Positions 1,363-12,427 of a stretch of 35,056 nt of DNA are shown here, one piece after another. The notes under the pieces are model-generated. The model was not told where the DNA came from, did not search any database, and saw only the letters and a list, made by a program, of their open reading frames with translations. Position numbers and translations under genes: made by a program. Position 1 is the stretch's first letter. Each line of letters starts with the position of its first letter. This stretch comes from a virus (lineage: Duplodnaviria; Heunggongvirae; Uroviricota; Caudoviricetes). The stretch lies in IMG/VR virus record IMGVR_UViG_2734482782_000004; one strand, given 5' to 3'.

Positions 1363-1446
1363 TTAATTTCGATTATTTTTCCCGGATGGAAAATTCTTAG
1401 AAACCGATCACATACAGCTGCATTTATTAAGGTTATCATCCGTTTC

Positions 1447-1533
1447 GCTGAAAAACATAACCCATAAAATGCTAGCTGTACCAGGAACCACCTCCTTAGC
1501 CTGTGTAATCTCCCTTACACGGGCTTATTTTTT
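1447..1533 (+). ncRNA. cyaR: CyaR (RyeE) small regulatory RNA; its 3' terminator overlaps the prophage attL core
   Basis: 87-nt stretch gctgaaaaacataacccataaaatgctagctgtaccaggaaccacctccttagcctgtgtaatctcccttacacgggcttatttttt matches CyaR as I recall it; ends in hairpin plus U-tract; positioned between yegQ and the ogr end as in K-12. Confidence 0.75.
1507..1533. repeat. attL core (27 bp), identical to attR core
   Basis: aatctcccttacacgggcttatttttt is present at 1507..1533 and again at 34554..34580; it is the reverse complement of the P2 core AAAAAATAAGCCCGTGTAAGGGAGATT as I recall it. Confidence 0.85.
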
Positions 1534-3098: not shown

Positions 3099-3577
3099 TA
3101 TCCCGCCCCCGTAATACCCGTGAATTTAGTCGCCACACTGCCAGCCTTACCGATGAGCGATTCCGCCTGTTTACCAATATCGCCATAAAGCGCGGCCAGT
3201 GATTCATCCACGCGGGTGAGCGACAGCGTAAAATCAATTTTCCGGGGTGTGCCGTCTGCAAAGAAAATACTCCCTGTTTCACTCACCCTGCTGATGACAT
3301 ACATGCCGTAAATCATGCCGGTGCCATCCAGCAACGGCCACGCCCGGCCTTCCTCTGCCATCAGCCTGAGCGTGGTCATCGTCAGCTTGCCGCCGGTCAG
3401 TTCGGGATAAAGCACACCGGCAAGCGTCATGTTTTCCTCGCCAACACCGAGAAACTGGTAGGCATCCCGTTTACCGATACGGGAATTTGACGGCCAGCGA
3501 TAATCTGATTCACGCTGCATGGTCTGGTGTGGCAGCGTCTGGCGCATAAAAACAAACATACCTAACGCGAGCATCAT
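3098..3577 (-). CDS. U: Tail protein gpU
   Basis: 159-aa ORF, P2 U length and position; start overlaps the D stop. Confidence 0.8.
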   Translation of the reverse strand: MMLALGMFVFMRQTLPHQTMQRESDYRWPSNSRIGKRDAYQFLGVGEENMTLAGVLYPELTGGKLTMTTLRLMAEEGRAWPLLDGTGMIYGMYVISRVSETGSIFFADGTPRKIDFTLSLTRVDESLAALYGDIGKQAESLIGKAGSVATKFTGITGAG

Positions 3578-3591
3578 TTTTAGTCACCTCC

Positions 3592-6039
3592 TTAACCGTC
3601 ATGCATCATGCTGGCACGGGCGCGCGCACGTTTATCCCGCTCGTATTTTTCGAGCGCATCCTGTAACTGGCGGTCGAGCTGTGTCCCCGGCGCAGTACCA
3701 CCCGTCAGGCTGATGTGATATTCGTTTTTACTCTGGTCTACATAAGAGCGGCCAGCAGGTGCCGTGACCGGCTGATAAGCCTGATAACCTGCATAAGAGC
3801 TGGTCGCCGGAATATAACCACCGCTGCCATACGTGGCGGCTTGAGTTCTGGCGGCGGTCTGGTCAAGTGTGTCTGACTCTTTGTTGATAACACCGAGTTT
3901 TTCCAGTACCCAGTCAATACCACTGCGCAGTTTGTTGAACGCATTAAGCGGCAGTATCAGCGCGTCAGCCAGTGCCTGCCCGAACATGACGCCCGTGTCA
4001 CGGCAACGGTTCAGGGTGTCCTGGGTGGCTTTGACCGGGGCAATCAGGTTTTTAAACCACTGCCACGCGGCCTGTAACTTTTCGCCCAGCCAGTCAAACA
4101 CCGGCTTCAGTGGCGTGAACAGTTCCCCCACCGGCGCAAATGCCGCTTTCAGCCCTTCAACCACACCGCCAAAGAATGCGCTGACAGGCTCCCAGTATTT
4201 ACGGATAAGCAACGCCCCGGCGACAATGGCGGCCACCACGGCCACAACCGGCCAGCTAATCGCCCCGATGGCCGTCATAACAGCACTGCTAACCGTCGTG
4301 AAGATTGCCCCCATTGCGCCTGCTGCCGCGATAATGGCATTGATGCCGGTGATAACCGGCCAGGCTACAAGACCAATGGCACCGATGATGCCAGTCAGCG
4401 CCAGCGCGCCACCGACAATGAGGCCGATGGTTGACGCCAGTGATTTGTTTTTCTGGATCCAGCCGTCGAGTTTTAACACATACTTTGTGGCCGTCTGTGT
4501 GAGCTTACGCAGTGCGCCTTCCTGCTGGTCAAACAGGTCAGTCCCCACCGCCTCATAAGCGGACTGAAACTCCTTAAAGTCACCGCCGAGGTTGTCCTGC
4601 ATGATATTTACCAGCTCTGCGGTCTTCCCGTCTGAGGCTTTAAACGCAGCGGTCAGTTTGTCCAGCTTTCCGGTTGAGGCGGCAGTCATCAGCACGGCGG
4701 CGGCTGAGCTGGCCTCCTCCCCGAAAATAGTTTTCATGTATTCAGCCTGCTGGGCAGTACCGAGCCGGTTTTTCTCAAAACTGGCCTGCATTTCTTTCAG
4801 AATGGTAAATACTGGTCGGGTGTTTCCCTTGCTGTCTGAGGTTTTCACTCCAAGCTCTTTGAGTGCATCCCATGCTTTTCCCGTCGGTGCCTGCAGGCGG
4901 CTTAACACGGCACGGCTTCCCGTCCCCGCCATTGAGCCTGTGATTTTTGCATCATGCAGCGCCCCGACCATTGCGGCGGTTTCTTCAATGCTGACACCGG
5001 CATTTTTTGCCACAGGTGCGGCATAGGTCAGCGCATCGCTCATGCCGTCAAAATCGGCGGCGGTTTTGTTCATCGTCATGGAGAGAACATCCCCTATATG
5101 AGCGACCTTATCGTTTGAAAGCTGAAAGGCGGATTTCATCCCCATCAGCAGGGCGGCGTTTTCTTCCATCGTGCGGCGGTTCGCCAGCGCCATATTCAGC
5201 GTGACCGGCGTTGCCGCCTGAATGGCATCAACATCCCCACCCGCTTTCGCGATGATAATCTGTGCACCGGCTGCATCATCTGCCGAGGCTGCGGTATTGT
5301 CGCCGAGCTGGCGCGCCTGCTTGCGGAGTGCGGTCATTTCGGCGGAGTCTTTTGCCACTCCTAGCACGGCCTGCAATTCTGAGTTTTTCTGCGCAAACTC
5401 ATAACCGGGCATCAGCAGCTTAACTCCGGCCATCGTTCCCGCCGCCGCAATCCCCACACCGGCAGCGCCCACCGAGGCCATATTTCCGGCCAGTTCCTTT
5501 CCGGCCTGATAACGCTGTTTTACTGCGTTAAGTTTTGCCTGTTGTGCACTGACACGCGCCAGCGCGTCGCGCTGTCGGTTAAGCTGTGCGGTGGTTTCAC
5601 TGATACGGTTTTTCAGTCCCTGCTCATCATGTGCAAGATTGCGGGTATTAATTCCCACAGCGGCCAGTTCCCGCTGCTGGCGTTTAACGGAATCCGTCAG
5701 GCGGTTATATTTCGCCTGTAAGTCCTCCGCCGCACGCTTTGCGGATTCCAGCACTTTCGCCTGAGCACGGGTCGGACGTTCGGTGTTTTTAAACTGTGTG
5801 GCAAGGGCTTCGGCCTCCTGCCGTGCCTTTTCAAGTGCATGACCAGTCACAGCGAGCTGTGCACTGGTCTTGCGGAATCCCTCAATACGGGATGCGTGAC
5901 CGTTCAGCTCGCGCAGTGATTTTTGTGTTTCCCGGATATCCCCCGACAGCGACTTACTCGCTGTGCGGATGGATTTAAACGGGCGGGATGCCTGGTCAAC
6001 AGCCCTGAGCAATACCTGTAATTTTACATTGTTACTCAT
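3592..6039 (-). CDS. T: Tail tape measure protein gpT
   Basis: 815-aa ORF (P2 T length); coiled-coil-rich N-terminal half, Ala/Gly-rich hydrophobic central segment; start ATG overlaps the E' stop. Confidence 0.85.
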   Translation of the reverse strand: MSNNVKLQVLLRAVDQASRPFKSIRTASKSLSGDIRETQKSLRELNGHASRIEGFRKTSAQLAVTGHALEKARQEAEALATQFKNTERPTRAQAKVLESAKRAAEDLQAKYNRLTDSVKRQQRELAAVGINTRNLAHDEQGLKNRISETTAQLNRQRDALARVSAQQAKLNAVKQRYQAGKELAGNMASVGAAGVGIAAAGTMAGVKLLMPGYEFAQKNSELQAVLGVAKDSAEMTALRKQARQLGDNTAASADDAAGAQIIIAKAGGDVDAIQAATPVTLNMALANRRTMEENAALLMGMKSAFQLSNDKVAHIGDVLSMTMNKTAADFDGMSDALTYAAPVAKNAGVSIEETAAMVGALHDAKITGSMAGTGSRAVLSRLQAPTGKAWDALKELGVKTSDSKGNTRPVFTILKEMQASFEKNRLGTAQQAEYMKTIFGEEASSAAAVLMTAASTGKLDKLTAAFKASDGKTAELVNIMQDNLGGDFKEFQSAYEAVGTDLFDQQEGALRKLTQTATKYVLKLDGWIQKNKSLASTIGLIVGGALALTGIIGAIGLVAWPVITGINAIIAAAGAMGAIFTTVSSAVMTAIGAISWPVVAVVAAIVAGALLIRKYWEPVSAFFGGVVEGLKAAFAPVGELFTPLKPVFDWLGEKLQAAWQWFKNLIAPVKATQDTLNRCRDTGVMFGQALADALILPLNAFNKLRSGIDWVLEKLGVINKESDTLDQTAARTQAATYGSGGYIPATSSYAGYQAYQPVTAPAGRSYVDQSKNEYHISLTGGTAPGTQLDRQLQDALEKYERDKRARARASMMHDG

Positions 6040-7046: not shown

Positions 7047-8237
7047 TTAATTGCTGTTAACCGAGGTGACCAGATTTGCCAGGTATTTATCGGTAATACG
7101 CTGGCGCAGGGTCAGGTTTTCAAGAGGAGGAACCGGGGTATAGTCGTAGTCGATATACAGTTTTCCGGCCTTAAGGGTTTCCGCATCGTTGGATTCTTCG
7201 CTGAACCAGCAGGTCGCATCCACGATATAGCCGTTTGTTTTCAGCTCACGAAATTTGGCATTGATGCCGTCAACGATGTCGCGAATCAGCGTTGCGGTGA
7301 TGGGCTTGTCCACCGCCCACATGTGCGCCTCAGCCATCGTGTCGGCCAGCACCTGCGCGGTGCGGGTGTAGTTTTCAAAGAGGAACAGCGGGTCATCGGA
7401 GCAGGTACGGTTACCCCAGAAGCGGAAACCGTCGCGGCGAATCAGCGTAGTGACGCCTGACTCGTTAAGCAGGTCAGCATCGGTGCCGGACTCCTGCAAA
7501 TCCCAGAATACAGAGGCACTGATGCCGGTAACACCGTTTACCCCGACATTGGACAGCGTTTTATGCCAGCCCTGCTCCTGGTCGATTTTAGCGCGCAGAC
7601 CCAGCGCACGGGCGGTGGCATACGCGGTGGCGGTGGTACTGGTGACCGTATCCCATGCGAGGAAATCAGGCCAGATGACCATCAGCTCACGCTGGCTGAA
7701 ATTCTGGCGGTAGGCTTTCACCTCGGAAATGGTCTTACAGCCCCATGCGCTGATATATCCGAAAGCGCGCAGCTTCTGACAGACTGATGCCAGTGCAACA
7801 GCCACCTCTTTGGTGTCCAGTCCCGGCACGCCGAGAATACGCGGTTTAACACCGGTTACCGACTCCGCCGCCAGCAGGGCTTTCAGTCCGGTGTACTGGC
7901 CGTTTTCGTCGGTGGTGCCGATGATATTGGAAACGGTCTGCGCAAGTTTCGTTTCTTCGTCTTCGCCGGTGCCGTCTTCCACACGTACAACAACGGTGAC
8001 TGGTTTTGACTGGTCAGCGATGGCCTGCAACGACGCCGCCAGCGTGCCTTTTTTACCGGCCTTTGCAATTGCGCTCTGCACATTGGTAATCAGCACAGGT
8101 TTATTGAGGGGAAAGGTTTCCGCATCCGCATCGCTGGCCGTGCAGACCATGCCGACAATGGCAGTGGATACGGTGGAAATGACGCGGGTGCCGTCGTTAA
8201 TCTCCAGCACCTGCACGCCGTGATGATAGTCACTCAT
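7047..8237 (-). CDS. FI: Contractile tail sheath protein gpFI
   Basis: 396-aa ORF, P2 FI length and position; GGAG ribosome-binding site upstream of the ATG. Confidence 0.85.
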   Translation of the reverse strand: MSDYHHGVQVLEINDGTRVISTVSTAIVGMVCTASDADAETFPLNKPVLITNVQSAIAKAGKKGTLAASLQAIADQSKPVTVVVRVEDGTGEDEETKLAQTVSNIIGTTDENGQYTGLKALLAAESVTGVKPRILGVPGLDTKEVAVALASVCQKLRAFGYISAWGCKTISEVKAYRQNFSQRELMVIWPDFLAWDTVTSTTATAYATARALGLRAKIDQEQGWHKTLSNVGVNGVTGISASVFWDLQESGTDADLLNESGVTTLIRRDGFRFWGNRTCSDDPLFLFENYTRTAQVLADTMAEAHMWAVDKPITATLIRDIVDGINAKFRELKTNGYIVDATCWFSEESNDAETLKAGKLYIDYDYTPVPPLENLTLRQRITDKYLANLVTSVNSN

Positions 8238-8333
8238 CCGTTTAACTCCGTGGTTAATGGGTGCAACTATTTTCTGTTGTGCAGAGCATGAGACGCTATT
8301 TGACCTGGCTGGTCAGGGGATGAAACAACAGAT

Positions 8334-8359
8334 AAAGAAAATGCGGGCAATTCGCCCGC
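8334..8359 (-). terminator. Rho-independent terminator separating the cargo locus from the FI late promoter region
   Basis: Hairpin gcgggc-aatt-gcccgc (8343..8359) followed on the minus strand by attttcttt. Confidence 0.45.
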
Positions 8360-8517
8360 CTGTCCTGATTTGTACTCACTCATTTTCCGCCTGACAATTT
8401 ACATAGCCCAAATGCTATCAAATCTGACAGTCTGCTTTGAGCGAGGAGCGGACATTGAGCTTGGTCTCAAGTATGCTGATTTTTTTTAGCTAATATCTTG
8501 GTTTTTTGATCAATAGG

Positions 8518-8547
8518 TTGCTGGTCAGCCCTAGGATCAGATATAAA
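8518..8547 (+). promoter_or_regulatory. Candidate sigma70 promoter for the HNH-like cargo gene
   Basis: TTGCTG (8518..8523), 18-bp spacer, TATAAA (8542..8547), about 55 bp upstream of the ATG at 8603; read by eye only. Confidence 0.3.
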
Positions 8548-8602
8548 AAGTATGATTTTATTCTCCCCACATAGATGAAAAAAACAAAGAAGCATAACTT
8601 TT

Positions 8603-9355
8603 ATGACCAAGACAAATAGGCACAACTTTCCTCCAAGCGTTGTAGGTAAGGTAGCAGAGCGCGCTGCATATATTTGTAGCAATCCCTCTTGTCATAGGGT
8701 AACAATCGGCCCGGATCAATTGGCGGAAAATCTTTCTATCAAGACGGGTGAGGCGGCGCATATCTGCGCGGCGAGCCCTGGCGGACCGCGCTATGACATG
8801 TCTCAGTCAGAAACAGAGCGGAAGAGCATAAAAAATGCTATATGGTTGTGCGGAGCTTGTGCTGATTTAGTTGATAAGAATGGCGGTATGGGCTACCCCG
8901 CCGAGTATTTGCGAAAATGGAAACGTGACCACGAATCACTAATGAAGGAGTGCTTGGAGGGAGGAAAGAGGCTAATTTTTCAATTTCTATCGCATCGCCC
9001 AGACGAGAAAATTGCTCTGCGGGTGATCCATTTATTGGAAGACAAGAGTTCTCTTTATCTGCCATATGCTCAAGAGGATCCAGCACGAGTCTCGGATTCT
9101 TTGAAGGAGCTCCGACTCTCTCTTACGGCGATTCGCTCCGAGATTGCACCTGAGTCTCCGCTATCGTTGATCGTCGAGTCAATTGTCCGTGCGTGCCGAC
9201 ACTATATGAATTCAACGCCAGATCGGCCGGGCATTGATGAGCTTAACTTCTCCCTCGGCGCAGTTCGTAAGGTAGTAGGAATTAACATCGGAGAACTATT
9301 GAAACACTATGAAATCCAGGTGAGTCACGAATTGCATTCTATTATTCCTAAATGA
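8603..9355 (+). CDS. Cargo protein with N-terminal HNH-like nuclease motif and a C-terminal domain of unknown function (candidate defence effector)
   Basis: 250-aa ORF in AT-rich DNA at the Z/fun position; residues 25-93 read C-x4-C-H ... GEAAHICAASPGG ... N-x4-LCGAC ... DKN, resembling the HNH beta-beta-alpha-Me fold with a Cys4 zinc knuckle; own terminator at 9378..9412. Confidence 0.6.
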   Translation: MTKTNRHNFPPSVVGKVAERAAYICSNPSCHRVTIGPDQLAENLSIKTGEAAHICAASPGGPRYDMSQSETERKSIKNAIWLCGACADLVDKNGGMGYPAEYLRKWKRDHESLMKECLEGGKRLIFQFLSHRPDEKIALRVIHLLEDKSSLYLPYAQEDPARVSDSLKELRLSLTAIRSEIAPESPLSLIVESIVRACRHYMNSTPDRPGIDELNFSLGAVRKVVGINIGELLKHYEIQVSHELHSIIPK

Positions 9356-9377
9356 ATTTTAACCAATAACTCAAGTT

Positions 9378-9412
9378 GGCGAAGCCTGAAAAAGATGAGC
9401 TTCGCCATTTTT
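9378..9412 (+). terminator. Rho-independent terminator after the HNH-like gene
   Basis: Hairpin ggcgaagc-(13 nt)-gcttcgcc followed by attttt. Confidence 0.6.
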
Positions 9413-9516
9413 CTCGGACCTTGAGTAATTAGTGCAGACACAATAAGCATATTGTTTTCGAGTGCACGACGAACGTAGTTTTCGATACTTTGAGTATTAT
9501 AGCTTCAACTTTTTAC

Positions 9517-10302
9517 TTACATCAAAAATAACTTACAATATTTGTAAGTTGCTTTGTGTACGAAAATGCTTGCGTCAACTCTTGACATCGGATTTTTTAA
9601 TATCCCTCCGGAACTTCCCTTTCCATGTCTCGCAAGATACCCTAACAGTTCAAAGCTATTAGCAGTGCCCGTGAATCTGCTGATTTCCTTTTCATCAATA
9701 TTAAAAGCCATGCTAATTACTTTATCTCTCTGATATTTCTTGCCTTTATAAGTGTCGGGAAAATTTAGTATACCTTTCACATATTTATCATATACATATT
9801 CTCTAATTGTTTCCCACAAACGATAAAGATTAACCCAATCATCACCTAAGGCACACATACCTAAAACAACACGTAAGGATTCATGTTTAGATGATAAATT
9901 AATTAATCGTGAAAAATTATCAGCGCGAGGGTGTGGTTGCTGTATGTCATGGAAATTAAAGGGGTTTACCTGAGTTACATCCATTGATTTAAAGCCGCAT
10001 ATTTCCGAGTAATTAATGCCTTCACTTCCAGAAATAGAAAGAGGACCAAAAGATTGATATCTTTCAAAACCATAAAGAACGCTAAGTGCGCCGTTCATGA
10101 GCATCAACAAACCTTTTAACTTGGAAGCCAATTCATTTGGGTCGGATATGATATTCAAATGAGGAGATGAAAGTAAATGAATATCTGTTTGCCCTAAATC
10201 AGAGTCAGAATCATCATTTATAGAGAAATCATTCGACCAAACTCCACATAATCTTTTAACAAATCCTGTAGATGGAGTAAGTAAAAAACTATAATCGTAC
10301 AT
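9517..10302 (-). CDS. Hypothetical cargo protein, 261 aa, no recognisable motif
   Basis: Long ORF in strongly AT-rich DNA, where chance ORFs of this length are unlikely; ATG at 10300..10302 preceded by GAGGGA about 8 nt upstream; convergent with the HNH-like gene. Confidence 0.55.
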   Translation of the reverse strand: MYDYSFLLTPSTGFVKRLCGVWSNDFSINDDSDSDLGQTDIHLLSSPHLNIISDPNELASKLKGLLMLMNGALSVLYGFERYQSFGPLSISGSEGINYSEICGFKSMDVTQVNPFNFHDIQQPHPRADNFSRLINLSSKHESLRVVLGMCALGDDWVNLYRLWETIREYVYDKYVKGILNFPDTYKGKKYQRDKVISMAFNIDEKEISRFTGTANSFELLGYLARHGKGSSGGILKNPMSRVDASIFVHKATYKYCKLFLM

Positions 10303-10456
10303 AACTCAAATCCCTCTTTTTTATATCCTAAATGGAATACAAAAATTATTGTTTATTTGTTATGTTCAATATACTCACATAACCGAAAACTTTAACACGC
10401 TCATTCTAAGTGAACTAAATCTAAAGATATACCTTTGAAAACTGAAAACTCAATGC

Positions 10457-10487
10457 TGGCAACGTCCGCTCCTGGCACAAAGCGAAC
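10457..10487. repeat. 31-bp imperfect direct repeat, copy A (27/31 identical to copy B)
   Basis: tggcaacgtccgctcctggcacaaagcgaac here versus tggcaatgtctgctcctggcacagagcggac at 11820..11850. Confidence 0.7.
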
Positions 10488-10551
10488 ATTCCTTGACGTC
10501 CTGTCAGGGAAACCCACCTGGACGTTCAGGTGATTCTGTCGATTATAGTCA

Positions 10552-10577
10552 TAAAAAAGCCGCCCCGGAGGGACGGC
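10552..10577 (-). terminator. Strong rho-independent terminator of the 227-aa membrane-protein gene
   Basis: Minus-strand GC-rich hairpin gccgtccc-tcc-ggggcggc followed by TTTTTTAT, about 80 nt downstream of the stop at 10657. Confidence 0.7.
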
Positions 10578-10656
10578 TATAAACTCGCCAGTTAACAAGC
10601 TGATTTTACCGCTTACGCGGTTCTGTCGTTGCGGTGTTCGCTGACCCACTGCGCCT

Positions 10657-11340
10657 TTACAGTTTATCGCTTATGAATCCATGAGCCTTAAATGTCCTGA
10701 CAAAATCCTCATAGCGCGCAATCATCCCCCCCGATGTTTCACGCACATTTTGCTGATGAAAGCGGAAGTTTGCCTCCGATTCAACACTCTTACTCTTCCA
10801 GTCATGGGGAAGGCTTAGCATCACTGGCTTTCTGTTCGGGTAATCAACACTCATAAATGGTAGCGTACTATCTACGTATGCGGTCATAGCGTCCAAAAAA
10901 GCGTCTTTCGCACCATTCACTTCAGTATTGAATAACCGATACTTTTCACCGCTAAATTTTTCAGCTTTTTCAATGTTTAAGCAAACATCTTGCCGTATAC
11001 CGCTCAGGTAGCTCTGCTCAACCCATTGAGTAGTATCCTCATAAGGCAGCAATTCAAGGATCTGGTCGATTATCTTCAGATCATGTTCATCTTGCTTTTT
11101 TTTTACAGGGTCCTCAGTAGATTCATTGGATGTGTGGTAAACGTTGGTGGTCTGATTAATATCCCGCCCGGCCTGGTTCACATCACCCTCGGTTTTCTTT
11201 GCCTTCTGTTTTATGTTGTTTTGCTGTCTGATTCTATATGTAACACCGCCCCCAATACCAAACAGTGCCAGTACGCCGACTAATAAGCTAAGATAGGTAG
11301 CTGCGTCTGCACCAAAATGTGCATTAAGCCATTCAGTCAT
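10657..11340 (-). CDS. Cargo membrane-anchored protein, 227 aa (N-terminal TM helix, then soluble domain); candidate single-gene defence or abortive-infection effector
   Basis: ORF with hydrophobic segment AATYLSLLVGVLALFGIGGGV at residues about 12-33; own extended -10 promoter and own terminator; AAGGA ribosome-binding site. Confidence 0.6.
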   Translation of the reverse strand: MTEWLNAHFGADAATYLSLLVGVLALFGIGGGVTYRIRQQNNIKQKAKKTEGDVNQAGRDINQTTNVYHTSNESTEDPVKKKQDEHDLKIIDQILELLPYEDTTQWVEQSYLSGIRQDVCLNIEKAEKFSGEKYRLFNTEVNGAKDAFLDAMTAYVDSTLPFMSVDYPNRKPVMLSLPHDWKSKSVESEANFRFHQQNVRETSGGMIARYEDFVRTFKAHGFISDKL

Positions 11341-11370
11341 TTGAACTATGTCCTTACAGTGTGAGTAAAG

Positions 11371-11400
11371 ATTATAATAACAGAGCTAACTTGCGCAGAA
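11371..11400 (-). promoter_or_regulatory. Candidate extended -10 sigma70 promoter of the 227-aa gene
   Basis: Minus-strand reads ttctgcgcaagttagctctgTtattataat: TGnTATTAT / TATAAT element with a weak -35; lies immediately downstream of the terminator at 11403..11433. Confidence 0.45.
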
Positions 11401-11402
11401 AC

Positions 11403-11433
11403 GAAAAAAGGCAGGGGAGGTAACCCCCCTGCC
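11403..11433 (-). terminator. Rho-independent terminator, probable end of the tail-fibre late transcript
   Basis: Minus-strand hairpin ggcagggg-(loop)-cccctgcc (11410..11433) followed by TTTTTTCGTTT. Confidence 0.65.
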
Positions 11434-11819
11434 TTTAATCAAGTTCCTCCATCCCTTACGGGCGTCCGGTCAGTTGCTTGATGGCAACCAGACCAGCTAG
11501 CATTATTTGCATCACCAGTAAGACTGTTGTTAGCGTTATCACTTCGACGTCTCCTCTTCCAGGAGAGCGCCACACGTAGTAAGTGCTTTTGGTTCTACCC
11601 GCCCCCCTCACTCCGCATCCATTAGTTAGCAGGTACAAGCAGCACTCTTTCGTGTGGTAAGCCAACAGGACAGCACTGGACTGACGCCTTGAGCTTTAAT
11701 ATTTCCTTCCGATCCATACAACTAGGTCTGTTAAAAGCCCCTAGGACGAATTCTACAGAGATGGCTATGGTGCAGGTTTCGGCTATAGGGCTCTTTGATG
11801 TAATCGAGGGTCATAACGT

Positions 11820-11850
11820 TGGCAATGTCTGCTCCTGGCACAGAGCGGAC
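11820..11850. repeat. 31-bp imperfect direct repeat, copy B, just 3' of gene G
   Basis: See copy A; copy B overlaps the left arm of a 10-bp-stem hairpin (11836..11877, tggcacagag / ctctgtgcca) lying 22 nt downstream of the G stop. Confidence 0.7.
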
Positions 11851-11899
11851 TGTCAGATTAGGCTTTACTCTGTGCCATAGATATGTAAGCTAATACAAC

Positions 11900-12427
11900 T
11901 TATTGCGGCATTTCCGGCCATTCAGGATTTGCAGGATCCACACGACTGATCAGAACGCTGTAGCGTTCCCATGATTCCAGTCGGCTACGCTCCTCATCTG
12001 TTGCCATGTTCAGTCTGACCGCGCGCTCCAGCGGCAAAATCACGGATTCAGCATCTGCAAGAAGTCTGGCTTTCCGAATTTCTGCCTGCTGCTGTAATTC
12101 CTCTGCCGTATAAATGCGTTTAATCACTTTGCCGTCCTTAAACATCCAGTTCCCTGAAATGTCCGCCCGTCGGTTAGCAGTAATATCCGCCACTTCAACA
12201 ACACTTAATCCATCCGGTCTGATAGCTGTCACATCCTTTTCCACATAGTGGATGATATTATCTTTGTCGTACGCTATTTTTATCGTGTCATCAGCAAAAT
12301 ACTTTTGTTCTTCGTACCAGTTCTTACCATCTTCTGAAAAAAACCAGACAACATCAAAGTCCTTTGTCAATTGATATTGTTCAACCGTTTTTGGATTACC
12401 CGCCGTAATATTTTTTAAATGCTGCAT
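11900..12427 (-). CDS. G: Tail fibre assembly chaperone gpG
   Basis: 175-aa ORF immediately downstream of H, P2 G length. Confidence 0.8.

What the first reader, a model, noticed from the sequence alone, without database searches (positions are those of the whole stretch)
10457..11850. 31-bp imperfect direct repeat brackets the 227-aa gene cassette
Seen in sequence: tggcaacgtccgctcctggcacaaagcgaac (10457..10487) and tggcaatgtctgctcctggcacagagcggac (11820..11850) are 27/31 identical. Copy B lies just 3' of G and forms the left arm of a 10-bp-stem hairpin (11836..11877); copy A lacks the right arm. Inference: a recombination scar indicating the island was built by successive cassette insertions next to the conserved G 3' flank, which defines module boundaries: about 10488..11819 for the 227-aa cassette and 8360..10456 for the other two genes.
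Basis: partly seen in the sequence, partly recalled or inferred. Interest (0 to 1): 0.5.

Follow-up and report, generated by a model that had tools for sequence, protein, structure and literature searches.

The report
Palindromic cassette junctions in P2 prophage
The 31-bp repeat is real: it is one of three copies of a 24-bp palindromic junction sequence that bounds the swappable cargo genes between the tail genes FI and G of a P2-like prophage, and the middle copy marks the seam between two cargo cassettes, one of which also occurs, with the same ends, in unrelated genomic islands.

Summary
Copies A (10457-10487) and B (11820-11850) match 27/31 (30/36 when extended), and no shuffle matched. 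Each copy is a 24-bp palindrome: 8-nt arm, 8-nt core, 8-nt arm (GTCCGCTY-CTGGCACA-GAGCGGAC). The two outer copies are the inner ends of the 'left' and 'right inverted repeats' already annotated around the P2 Z/fun variable locus (GenBank AJ512676-85; Nilsson et al. 2004).

Copy A is a true cassette seam. The 227-aa module, with both copies, recurs at 98.6-99.8% identity in two kinds of CP4-like islands. There, homology starts and stops inside the palindromes. GC jumps from 0.29 to 0.51 across copy A. A second P2-like island (L084) shows the same single-cassette to two-cassette relationship.

The unit is not phage-specific. R-linker-L doublets separate ordinary accessory genes in Pantoea, Erwinia, Enterobacter and Klebsiella chromosomes and plasmids, with no linked recombinase.

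Best reading: these are recombination junctions, with exchange inside the core. The enzyme is unknown, and homology- or hairpin-driven recombination is not excluded. This is a new instance of a known feature, of moderate interest.

The parts
7047..8237 (-). FI tail sheath gene (conserved backbone on one side of the island)
   Evidence: Pfam Phage_sheath_1, Phage_sheath_1C and Gp18_domIII_N
8343..8359 (-). Intrinsic-terminator-like hairpin of the conserved backbone, between the island and the FI upstream region
   Evidence: Terminator scan: 7-bp stem followed by a T tract. Conserved in the P2-EC records.
8363..8453 (.). Counterpart of the 'right inverted repeat' annotated in the P2-EC Z-region GenBank records
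   Evidence: Annotation of AJ512682/83/85, mapped onto the window through alignment A1
8430..8453 (-). L unit: third, inverted copy of the 24-bp palindrome. On the + strand it reads GTCTGCTT-TGAGCGAG-GAGCGGAC. It is the true FI-side boundary of the cargo.
   Evidence: (I1, I2). Homology among phages breaks inside it.
8603..9355 (+). Cargo gene 1 of the left module: 250 aa with an N-terminal HNH-endonuclease-like region
   Evidence: PADLOC PDC-M68A 3.8e-24 and SAVED/HNH effector models. No Pfam or NCBIfam hit.
9517..10302 (-). Cargo gene 2 of the left module: 261 aa, about 29-37% GC. One of the two left-module genes is named 'DUF6650 family protein' in some RefSeq records; which gene carries the name was not checked.
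   Evidence: ORF list, RefSeq names under the matches, GC profile
10452..10487 (+). Copy A. The R' unit at 10464-10487 reads GTCCGCTC-CTGGCACA-AAGCGAAC. It is the internal seam between the left and right modules.
   Evidence: The three-context alignment shows homology starting at 10464. GC steps from 0.29 to 0.51 here.
10558..10578 (-). Intrinsic-terminator-like hairpin downstream of the 227-aa gene
   Evidence: Terminator scan: 9-bp stem followed by TTTTTT
10657..11340 (-). 227-aa cargo gene of the right module, with a hydrophobic N-terminus and no family match
   Evidence: The module is present in 34 E. coli genomes in at least 3 contexts.
11407..11436 (-). Strong intrinsic-terminator-like hairpin (13-bp stem) ending a separate unit of about 400 nt inside the right module
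11456..11542 (-). 28-codon GTG-start hydrophobic ORF (VITLTTVLLVMQIMLAGLVAIKQLTGRP), with GAGGAG 8 nt upstream. It resembles a type I toxin; this is inference only.
   Evidence: Sequence and ORF list. No Rfam or Pfam support.
11815..11850 (+). Copy B. The R unit at 11827-11850 reads GTCTGCTC-CTGGCACA-GAGCGGAC. It is the G-side boundary of the cargo.
   Evidence: Homology among phages and islands breaks inside it.
11827..11927 (.). Counterpart of the 'left inverted repeat' annotated in the P2-EC Z-region records. It begins exactly at base 1 of the R unit and runs into the 3' end of G. The window lacks 12 nt that those records have.
   Evidence: and alignment A2
11835..11877 (.). P2-specific 10-bp-stem hairpin that uses the R core and backbone arm as its 5' arm
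   Evidence: The 3' arm is conserved in P2-like loci but absent from CP4-like islands.
11900..12427 (-). G tail-fibre assembly gene (conserved backbone on the other side)
   Evidence: Pfam Caudo_TAP 1.8e-33

Best explanation
Copies A and B are two of three copies of a 24-bp palindromic junction unit: an 8-nt arm, an 8-nt core and an 8-nt arm. The R type reads GTCCGCTY-CTGGCACA-GAGCGGAC. The L type is its inverted relative, with core TGAGCGAR.

One L unit (8430-8453) and one R unit (11827-11850) bound the hypervariable Z/fun cargo locus between FI and G. In each, one arm belongs to the phage backbone and the other to the cargo.

Cargo is exchanged by recombination whose crossover falls inside the unit, most likely in the central 7-nt core, so each arm stays with its own flank. 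A DNA segment carrying one R unit (a circle, or a segment of another array) that recombines with the resident G-proximal R unit yields L-cassette1-R'-cassette2-R. That is the arrangement seen here: copy A is R' and copy B is R.

Shown: the units, their positions at junctions, and the independent travel of the 227-aa cassette with its two units.

Inferred: that the exchange is conservative and site-directed, the nature of the enzyme (unknown, and not encoded next to the sites), and the order of insertion.
For: - Three copies in the window, none expected by chance.
- The outer copies coincide to the base with the inner ends of the inverted repeats annotated in the P2-EC Z-region records.
- 64 complete P2-like islands with 34 unrelated cargos all have the form L...R, with degenerate cargo-side arms and a constant backbone side. 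Extra internal units occur only in islands of at least 2.4 kb.
- The 227-aa module with both units is found in a P2-like prophage, in CP4-like island type A and in the SE11 CP4-like island. The breaks fall inside the units.
- L084 equals the L026 cassette, then an R-linker-L doublet, then a second cassette on the G side.
- Linkage across 352 distinct sites shows that the arms segregate with their own flanks, which brackets the exchange to unit positions 10-16.
- Cores are as conserved as arms, and compensatory changes are rare. This fits sequence-specific recognition better than simple hairpin formation.
- GC steps sharply at copy A.
Against: - No recombinase or transposase is linked to the sites. 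Among 285 ORFs inside and beside arrays, no such family appeared among the 25 commonest Pfam families of either set; rarer families were not listed. No recurrent candidate cluster was seen either.
- No empty site, excised form or left-module-only island was found.
- The large 'shared backbone flank' set is biased, because those loci were retrieved with a pattern that fixes the core and the backbone arm. The unbiased set has only 9 pairs plus the three-context case.
- Outside E. coli the units sit between ordinary accessory genes, as REP elements do. Junction status could therefore be a by-product of short shared homology.
Confidence: 0.6

Rival explanations
1. The units are REP/REPIN-like extragenic palindromes with no dedicated cassette machinery. 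They become mosaic junctions because 24-40 bp of shared sequence supports short-homology recombination (RecA, or phage single-strand-annealing recombinases). Their hairpin or cruciform potential may also provoke breaks or fork stalling. Copy A is then simply the palindrome that came along with the 227-aa gene block.
For: - R-linker-L doublets lie every 0.6-3 kb between LysR, GNAT, SDR, AraC and MFS genes in Pantoea, Erwinia and Enterobacter, and on 625 plasmids.
- No linked recombinase was found.
- A doublet can form an imperfect stem of about 27 bp (sequence).
- Related palindromes cluster in alphaproteobacterial MAGs.
- Breakpoint resolution is limited by how conserved the site is.
Against: - E. 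coli carries only 1-2 copies per genome, always in mobile elements.
- Loops are as conserved as stems across genera.
- Arms segregate cleanly with their flanks (small unbiased sample).
- Cargo-side arms persist next to otherwise unrelated cargos. Homologous exchange through the long FI and G flanks would not require that.
Confidence: 0.3
2. The units are mainly RNA or transcription elements that each cassette needs at its ends, such as 3' stabilising hairpins, processing sites or insulators between the late tail operons and the cargo. Under this reading their position at junctions reflects function rather than recombination.
For: - Each unit can form an 8-bp stem, or a 10-bp stem at copy B.
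- REP elements are reported to lie mostly downstream of coding regions and to act as RNA elements (PMC3733652).
- Copy B lies directly 3' of G.
Against: - No T tract follows any copy, and the terminator scan places the terminators elsewhere.
- Fold z-scores are weak, from -2.4 to 0.
- Cargo genes lie in either orientation relative to the units.
- The conserved loop sequence and the lack of compensatory changes argue against a purely structural role.
- This reading does not explain why homology between unrelated backbones stops inside the unit.
Confidence: 0.12
3. L and R are the terminal inverted repeats of a non-autonomous transposon (a cargo-carrying MITE) mobilised in trans by a transposase.
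For: - Inverted 24-37-nt ends flank the cargo.
- About 10% of R sites carry a longer conserved extension on the cargo side.
- IS110-family transposase genes lie 2-3 kb from doublets in two Klebsiella plasmids.
Against: - There is no target-site duplication. The outer flanks are themselves inverted (AATCTGACA / TGTCAGATT), not direct.
- The internal seam here has a single R unit rather than paired ends.
- The backbone-side arm stays with the backbone.
- No transposase recurs near the sites.
Confidence: 0.04

Closest known systems
[quoted passage not shown]
   Same: It is the same locus (between G and FI) and the same sequences. The annotated repeats end exactly at the cargo-side ends of the L and R units in this window. 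The link to islands of other enterobacteria is also reproduced here.
   Different: Those records each hold one cargo block between the two repeats. This window has an extra internal R unit, which gives a direct repeat and a two-cassette island. The paper itself is not in the library, so its content beyond the title and the GenBank annotation comes from my memory only.
pdif modules of Acinetobacter plasmids (gene modules bounded by inverted XerC/XerD sites; from my own knowledge, not checked here)
   Same: It works alike: discrete gene modules are bounded by short palindromic sites in inverted orientation, the same module appears in different replicons, and no recombinase gene travels with the module.
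   Different: The site here is 8-8-8 with GC-rich arms, not the 11-6-11 dif-like sequence. The hosts are Enterobacterales phages, islands and plasmids. Arrays here use R-linker-L doublets or a lone R, not alternating shared sites. There is no evidence for Xer involvement.
Integron gene cassettes and attC sites
   Same: Cassettes are separated by imperfect palindromes. A circle carrying one site and inserting at a resident site would produce the direct repeat seen here. The newest cassette lies next to the fixed docking site.
   Different: No integron integrase is nearby. The R''/R' core consensus is not met. Sites occur in both orientations. Cassettes carry their own promoters and terminators.
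REP / BIME / REPIN extragenic palindromes, including the GTAG and CGTC super-families (Di Nocera et al. 2013, PMC3733652)
   Same: These are also short extragenic palindromes, often arranged as inverted doublets that could fold into larger hairpins, and they lie between ordinary genes. CGTC REPs likewise lack a dedicated transposase.
   Different: - The loop here is 8 nt (CGTC families have 4-5 nt).
- The stem is GC-rich and does not begin with AT.
- There is no unpaired GTAG or CGTC tag.
- Copy number in E. coli is very low.
- No RAYT association was seen.

Membership tests
P2-like Z/fun-locus flanking inverted repeats (Nilsson et al. 2004) | Located between tail genes G and FI of a P2-like phage | tested here: met
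   Pfam identifies G (Caudo_TAP) and FI (sheath) on either side. 70 phage records match both flanks.
P2-like Z/fun-locus flanking inverted repeats (Nilsson et al. 2004) | Sequence homologous to the annotated left and right inverted repeats | tested here: met
   Alignments A1 and A2 against AJ512676/82/83/85. The annotated ends map to window 8453 and 11827.
P2-like Z/fun-locus flanking inverted repeats (Nilsson et al. 2004) | Unrelated cargo lies between the repeats in different phages | tested here: met
   34 distinct cargos among 64 islands
Integron attC / gene cassette array | Adjacent integron integrase (intI) and attI | tested here: not met
   No recombinase family appears among the 25 commonest Pfam families in 285 ORFs in and around arrays. 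In the window the island lies between tail genes.
Integron attC / gene cassette array | R'' RYYYAAC and R' GTTRRRY core sites at the ends of the palindrome | tested here: not met
   The site logo shows caA.|GTCCGCT...AGCGGAC with no such cores. The attC consensus is from my own knowledge.
Integron attC / gene cassette array | All sites in one orientation, with mostly promoterless single-ORF cassettes | tested here: not met
   L and R units are inverted relative to each other. The cassettes carry their own terminators.
REP / REPIN (RAYT-associated) | Short (20-40 nt) extragenic imperfect palindrome | tested here: met
   The unit is 24 nt and always intergenic.
REP / REPIN (RAYT-associated) | High copy number within a genome | tested here: inconclusive
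   1-2 copies per E. coli genome. Up to 10 per Pantoea plasmid and up to 10 per 8-kb locus. Whole-genome counts outside E. coli were not obtainable.
REP / REPIN (RAYT-associated) | Inverted doublets able to form a larger hairpin | tested here: met
   R-(10-18 nt)-L doublets occur in many Enterobacterales loci and plasmids. There is no doublet in this window.
REP / REPIN (RAYT-associated) | Conserved GTAG (or CGTC) unpaired tag, and a RAYT gene flanked by the repeats | tested here: not met
   The logo shows no tag. Stem and loop dimensions differ from the published CGTC families. No recurrent transposase-like ORF cluster lies near the sites.
Xer/dif-type module sites (pdif) | 11-6-11 site resembling the XerC/XerD arms of dif | tested here: not met
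   The unit is 8-8-8 with arms GTCCGCTY / RAGCGGAC. The comparison with the dif consensus is from my own knowledge.
Transposon / MITE terminal inverted repeats | Direct target-site duplication outside the inverted ends | tested here: not met
   The outer flanks AATCTGACA and TGTCAGATT are inverted, not direct.
Intrinsic (Rho-independent) terminator | GC-rich hairpin followed by a T tract | tested here: not met
   The terminator scan lists 10 candidate sites in 8200-12000, and none is at a unit.

The most novel reading that the evidence does not exclude
L and R may be heterospecific docking sites of a trans-acting cassette-exchange system that has not been described. The enzyme would not be encoded next to the sites. 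It could be a tyrosine recombinase, or a serine recombinase acting on a 12-2-12 site: the R and L cores differ only at two positions symmetric about a central GC. Such a system would move gene cassettes among P2-like phages, CP4-like islands, plasmids and chromosomes of Enterobacterales, working like an integron or pdif network without a linked integrase. It would explain cargo turnover at a phage locus whose cargo includes anti-phage genes.
Probability: 0.2. Interest if true: 0.8.

Novelty: new member of a known kind. Interest (0 to 1): 0.45.

Why it matters
How cargo genes turn over at fixed phage and island hotspots is an open question. Rousset et al. 2022 state that the molecular mechanisms of exchange at P2/P4 hotspots remain to be established, and they discuss only the cos-adjacent locus.

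This window gives a base-resolved, testable substrate: a 24-bp palindrome whose core brackets the exchange point, and a natural two-cassette array. One of its cassettes is shared at 98.6-99.8% identity with unrelated islands.

The same unit on hundreds of Klebsiella, Enterobacter and Pantoea plasmids suggests a wider route of gene flow, if the exchange proves to be site-directed. If it is only a REP-like homology patch, the result is ordinary but still useful for delimiting cassettes when annotating P2-like prophages.

Tried and rejected
- **Rfam:** at gathering and at E<=1, over the window and three array loci, there was no family at the units. Only CyaR and a fluoride riboswitch appeared elsewhere.
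- **Literature string search:** six core strings returned only unrelated primer hits. Nilsson 2004 and Odegrip 2006 are not in the library, and the citing papers give no detail on the repeats.
- **Decayed L unit after copy A:** the local alignment score was reached by 178 of 2000 shuffles, so it is not significant and was dropped.
- **Inverted cargo:** no pair of islands shares cargo in opposite orientation.
- **Empty sites in IMG/VR:** neither a hybrid backbone-backbone palindrome nor adjacent L-R units were found.
- **Left module alone:** it is never found without the right module in E. coli. The 261-aa protein has no tblastn hit in the phage collection.
- **Strand bias of G·T versus A·C pairs and compensatory changes:** uninformative, because the stems are conserved rather than covarying.
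- **Linked recombinase:** none was found by ORF clustering or Pfam scans of 285 ORFs.
- **CGTC-REP membership:** considered because the arm reads (A)CGTCCGCT, but rejected on loop length, stem composition and the lack of an unpaired tag.
- **Serine-recombinase-like reading of the site:** this rests on a resemblance recalled from memory to resolvase and invertase sites. It is kept only as a lead.
Full report
**Observation.** The ungapped match extends to 36 nt (10452-10487 and 11815-11850, 83%). A degenerate pattern covering both copies finds exactly these two sites and none in 100 dinucleotide-preserving shuffles. The 10-bp hairpin at copy B (TGGCACAGAG at 11835-11844 with CTCTGTGCCA at 11868-11877) is the predicted minimum-energy fold on both strands. 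It is only modestly better than shuffles (z -2.4 and -1.9), and copy A has no such partner.

The repeat finder also reports a third copy in inverted orientation. The segment 8421-8457 is 86% complementary to 11823-11859 over 37 nt, and 88% complementary to copy A over 24 nt. A 24-nt degenerate pattern finds three sites and no more: 8430-8453 (-), 10464-10487 (+) and 11827-11850 (+). Each is itself a palindrome of 8-nt arm, 8-nt core and 8-nt arm, for example GTCTGCTC-CTGGCACA-GAGCGGAC at copy B. I call the G-side type R (core CTGGCACA) and the FI-side type L (core TGAGCGAG as read on the + strand).

**Context.** On the minus strand the window carries P2-type tail genes. FI (sheath) is at 7047-8237 and G (tail-fibre assembly) is at 11900-12427. 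Between them lie:
- a 250-aa protein with an HNH-like N-terminus, matching a PADLOC candidate family;
- a 261-aa protein with no family hit;
- a 227-aa protein with no family hit.

Minus-strand terminator-like hairpins lie at 8343-8359, 10558-10578 and 11407-11436, and none is at a repeat copy. GC content rises from 0.29 to 0.51 across copy A.

**Already described.** Seventy phage records match only the two ends of the FI-G interval. Four of them (AJ512676, -82, -83, -85; 'proviral Z-region' of P2-EC30/53/58/67) annotate a 'left inverted repeat' next to G and a 'right inverted repeat' next to FI around an unrelated ORF (in AJ512676 the FI-side repeat is annotated without that label). Through alignments A1 and A2 these repeats map to window 8363-8453 and 11827-about 11927. 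Their cargo-side ends therefore coincide to the base with the ends of the L and R units. These records belong to Nilsson, Karlsson and Haggard-Ljungquist 2004 (Mol Biol Evol 21:1). The library holds only citations of it, so I use only its title and the GenBank features.

**The motif at other cargo boundaries.**
- A scan of IMG/VR for the R core plus backbone flank returned 85 P2-like contigs.
- 64 of them have a complete island, with 34 unrelated cargos of about 0.7-5.9 kb between the flanking sites.
- Every island has an L unit on the FI side and an R unit on the G side. The cargo-side arm is degenerate but recognisable, and the rest of the cargo is unrelated.
- Additional internal units (at most 5 mismatches in 24) occur only in islands of at least 2.4 kb.
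- One of these, L084, equals the single-cassette island L026 (85% identity up to its R unit), followed by an R-linker-L doublet and a second cassette on the G side.
- No cargo is shared in opposite orientation.

**Copy A is a real seam.** In 5,426 complete E. coli genomes, the left module (8465-10445) occurs 15 times and always with the right module. The right module (10495-11810) occurs in 34 genomes. Outside P2-like prophages it lies in CP4-like islands, immediately upstream of the GTPase-family gene. This holds in a type with an integrase fragment and Ag43 (L005, L092, L095) and in the different SE11 island (L093).
- In all three backbones it is bounded by the same two units.
- Alignment A4 shows that sequence to the left of the first base of R' is unrelated, while everything to the right is identical.
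- Alignment A5 shows identity up to CTGGCAC of R. After that SE11 diverges inside the core, and the P2 and CP4-like A backbones diverge after TGTCAGATTAG.

The direct repeat is therefore not a local duplication. It is a property of a unit that moves between elements.

**The unit is not phage-specific.**
- A scan of one genome per species found 94 loci. Most are Enterobacterales (Pantoea, Erwinia, Enterobacter, Serratia, Yersinia and others), often with several loci per genome.
- In many of them the R unit is followed, 10-18 nt later, by an L unit. These doublets recur every 0.6-3 kb, with one to three ORFs in either orientation between them.
- Those ORFs are ordinary accessory genes (LysR, GNAT, SDR, AraC, MFS, TetR). 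Neither they nor the flanking ORFs include a recurrent recombinase or transposase.
- A 76-nt doublet probe hits 625 plasmids, chiefly Klebsiella, Enterobacter and Pantoea, with up to 10 places per record.
- E. coli has only 1-2 close copies per genome, all chromosomal.
- Related palindromes cluster in alphaproteobacterial MAGs.
- No Rfam family matches.

**Anatomy and where exchange happens.** A logo built from 214 distinct R sites and 119 distinct L sites gives caA.|gTCCGCTt|cTGGCACA|gAGCGGAC and, for L read in reverse, gTCCGCTt|.TCGCTCA|.AGCgGAC.
- Cores are as conserved as arms, and compensatory changes are rare.
- R and reversed-L cores differ at positions 11 and 14, symmetric about a central GC.
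- Among 352 distinct sites, pairs that share only the cargo flank are identical at positions 1-7 and 9-14 and differ from position 15 on, most strongly at 17. Pairs that share only the backbone flank differ at positions 1-9 and are identical from 10 on.
- Each arm thus travels with its own flank, which brackets the exchange to the 7-nt core.
- Caveat: the second set is biased, because its loci were retrieved with a pattern that fixes the core and the backbone arm. The unbiased support is the 9 pairs, the four GenBank records and the three-context module.

**Mechanism.** The best reading is that L and R are recombination junctions and that copy A is the hybrid site left when an R-bearing segment joined the G-proximal R unit. 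The result is L-cassette1-R'-cassette2-R.
- Cargo-side arms persist next to unrelated cargos, the cores are type-specific, and the arms segregate cleanly. All three fit a conservative, site-directed exchange, similar in logic to att, lox or pdif sites.
- No enzyme is linked to the sites, and no excised or empty form was found.
- The main rival is that these are REP-like palindromes acting as short homology patches or fragile hairpins. It fits their genomic setting outside E. coli.
- A purely RNA or terminator role is weakly supported.
- Transposon ends are unlikely because there are no target duplications.

**Verdict.**
- there is a third, inverted copy;
- the repeat is a palindromic site, not a scar;
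- the left boundary of the island is 8430-8453;
- the flanking repeats are prior knowledge.

This is a new instance, a two-cassette array with a direct repeat, of a known feature. It is of moderate interest because it offers a precise substrate for testing how cargo at phage and island hotspots is exchanged.

Noticed in passing
window 11407-11815 (- strand): Between copy B and the 227-aa gene lies a separate unit of about 400 nt that ends in a strong terminator (13-bp stem, 11436->11407). It contains a 28-codon GTG-start hydrophobic ORF (11542->11456, VITLTTVLLVMQIMLAGLVAIKQLTGRP) with GAGGAG 8 nt upstream. This is the layout of a type I toxin mRNA with a long leader. There is no Rfam or Pfam support. 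E24377A keeps only the last 137 nt of this unit, next to an IS66.
   Followed up: partly
window 1445-1530 (+): A full-length CyaR/RyeE sRNA gene (Rfam RF00112, 100.7 bits) lies near one end of the prophage-bearing window.
   Followed up: no
L048, L091, L101, L115, L123, L126, L175 and others; weakly at window 11770-11826: About 20 of 207 distinct R sites (and a few L sites) carry a conserved 45-50-nt extension on the cargo side. Read away from the site it is GTTGCTAACA-N8-10-TGTTAATCAA-NN-GGGAGCAGGTCA. No ORF starts right after it, and its role is unknown.
   Followed up: partly
L190 716-769 and 2915-2968; L191: Two Klebsiella plasmid contexts of the doublet have an IS110-family transposase gene 2-3 kb away. 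In L190 the same 30-nt hairpin-containing sequence (aggtaacgctcactgcRataagtgagcgca) abuts an L unit at two places, one just downstream of the IS110 gene. This may be an IS that targets the unit.
   Followed up: partly
L116, L153, L156, L167, L174 (alphaproteobacterial MAGs): Clusters of closely related palindromes (ATGTCCGCTTnTGGCACAnAGCGGACAT, alternating with a GGGGGTAA-loop variant) lie between small ORFs. In L116 six are in one orientation, about 0.1-1.6 kb apart. This is an unexpectedly wide taxonomic reach for the same arms and core.
   Followed up: no
window 8603-10302: The left module is compositionally split. The HNH-like gene has 46-50% GC and the convergent 261-aa gene has 29-37% GC, with no unit between them.
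   Followed up: no
L035 (IMG/VR), island positions about 110-1263 and 3305-4605: This is the same two-cassette island as the window, but with two insertions of about 1.15 and 1.3 kb. One shows a 9-nt overlap at its junction, which suggests IS elements.
   Followed up: no
L005 3815-3838 (also L092 and L095, 2784-2807): A half unit (cargo arm plus core, GTCCGCTTCTGGCACAG) abuts the 3' end of a truncated integrase gene in the CP4-like island. It separates a dynamin-family gene block from the rest of the island.
   Followed up: no
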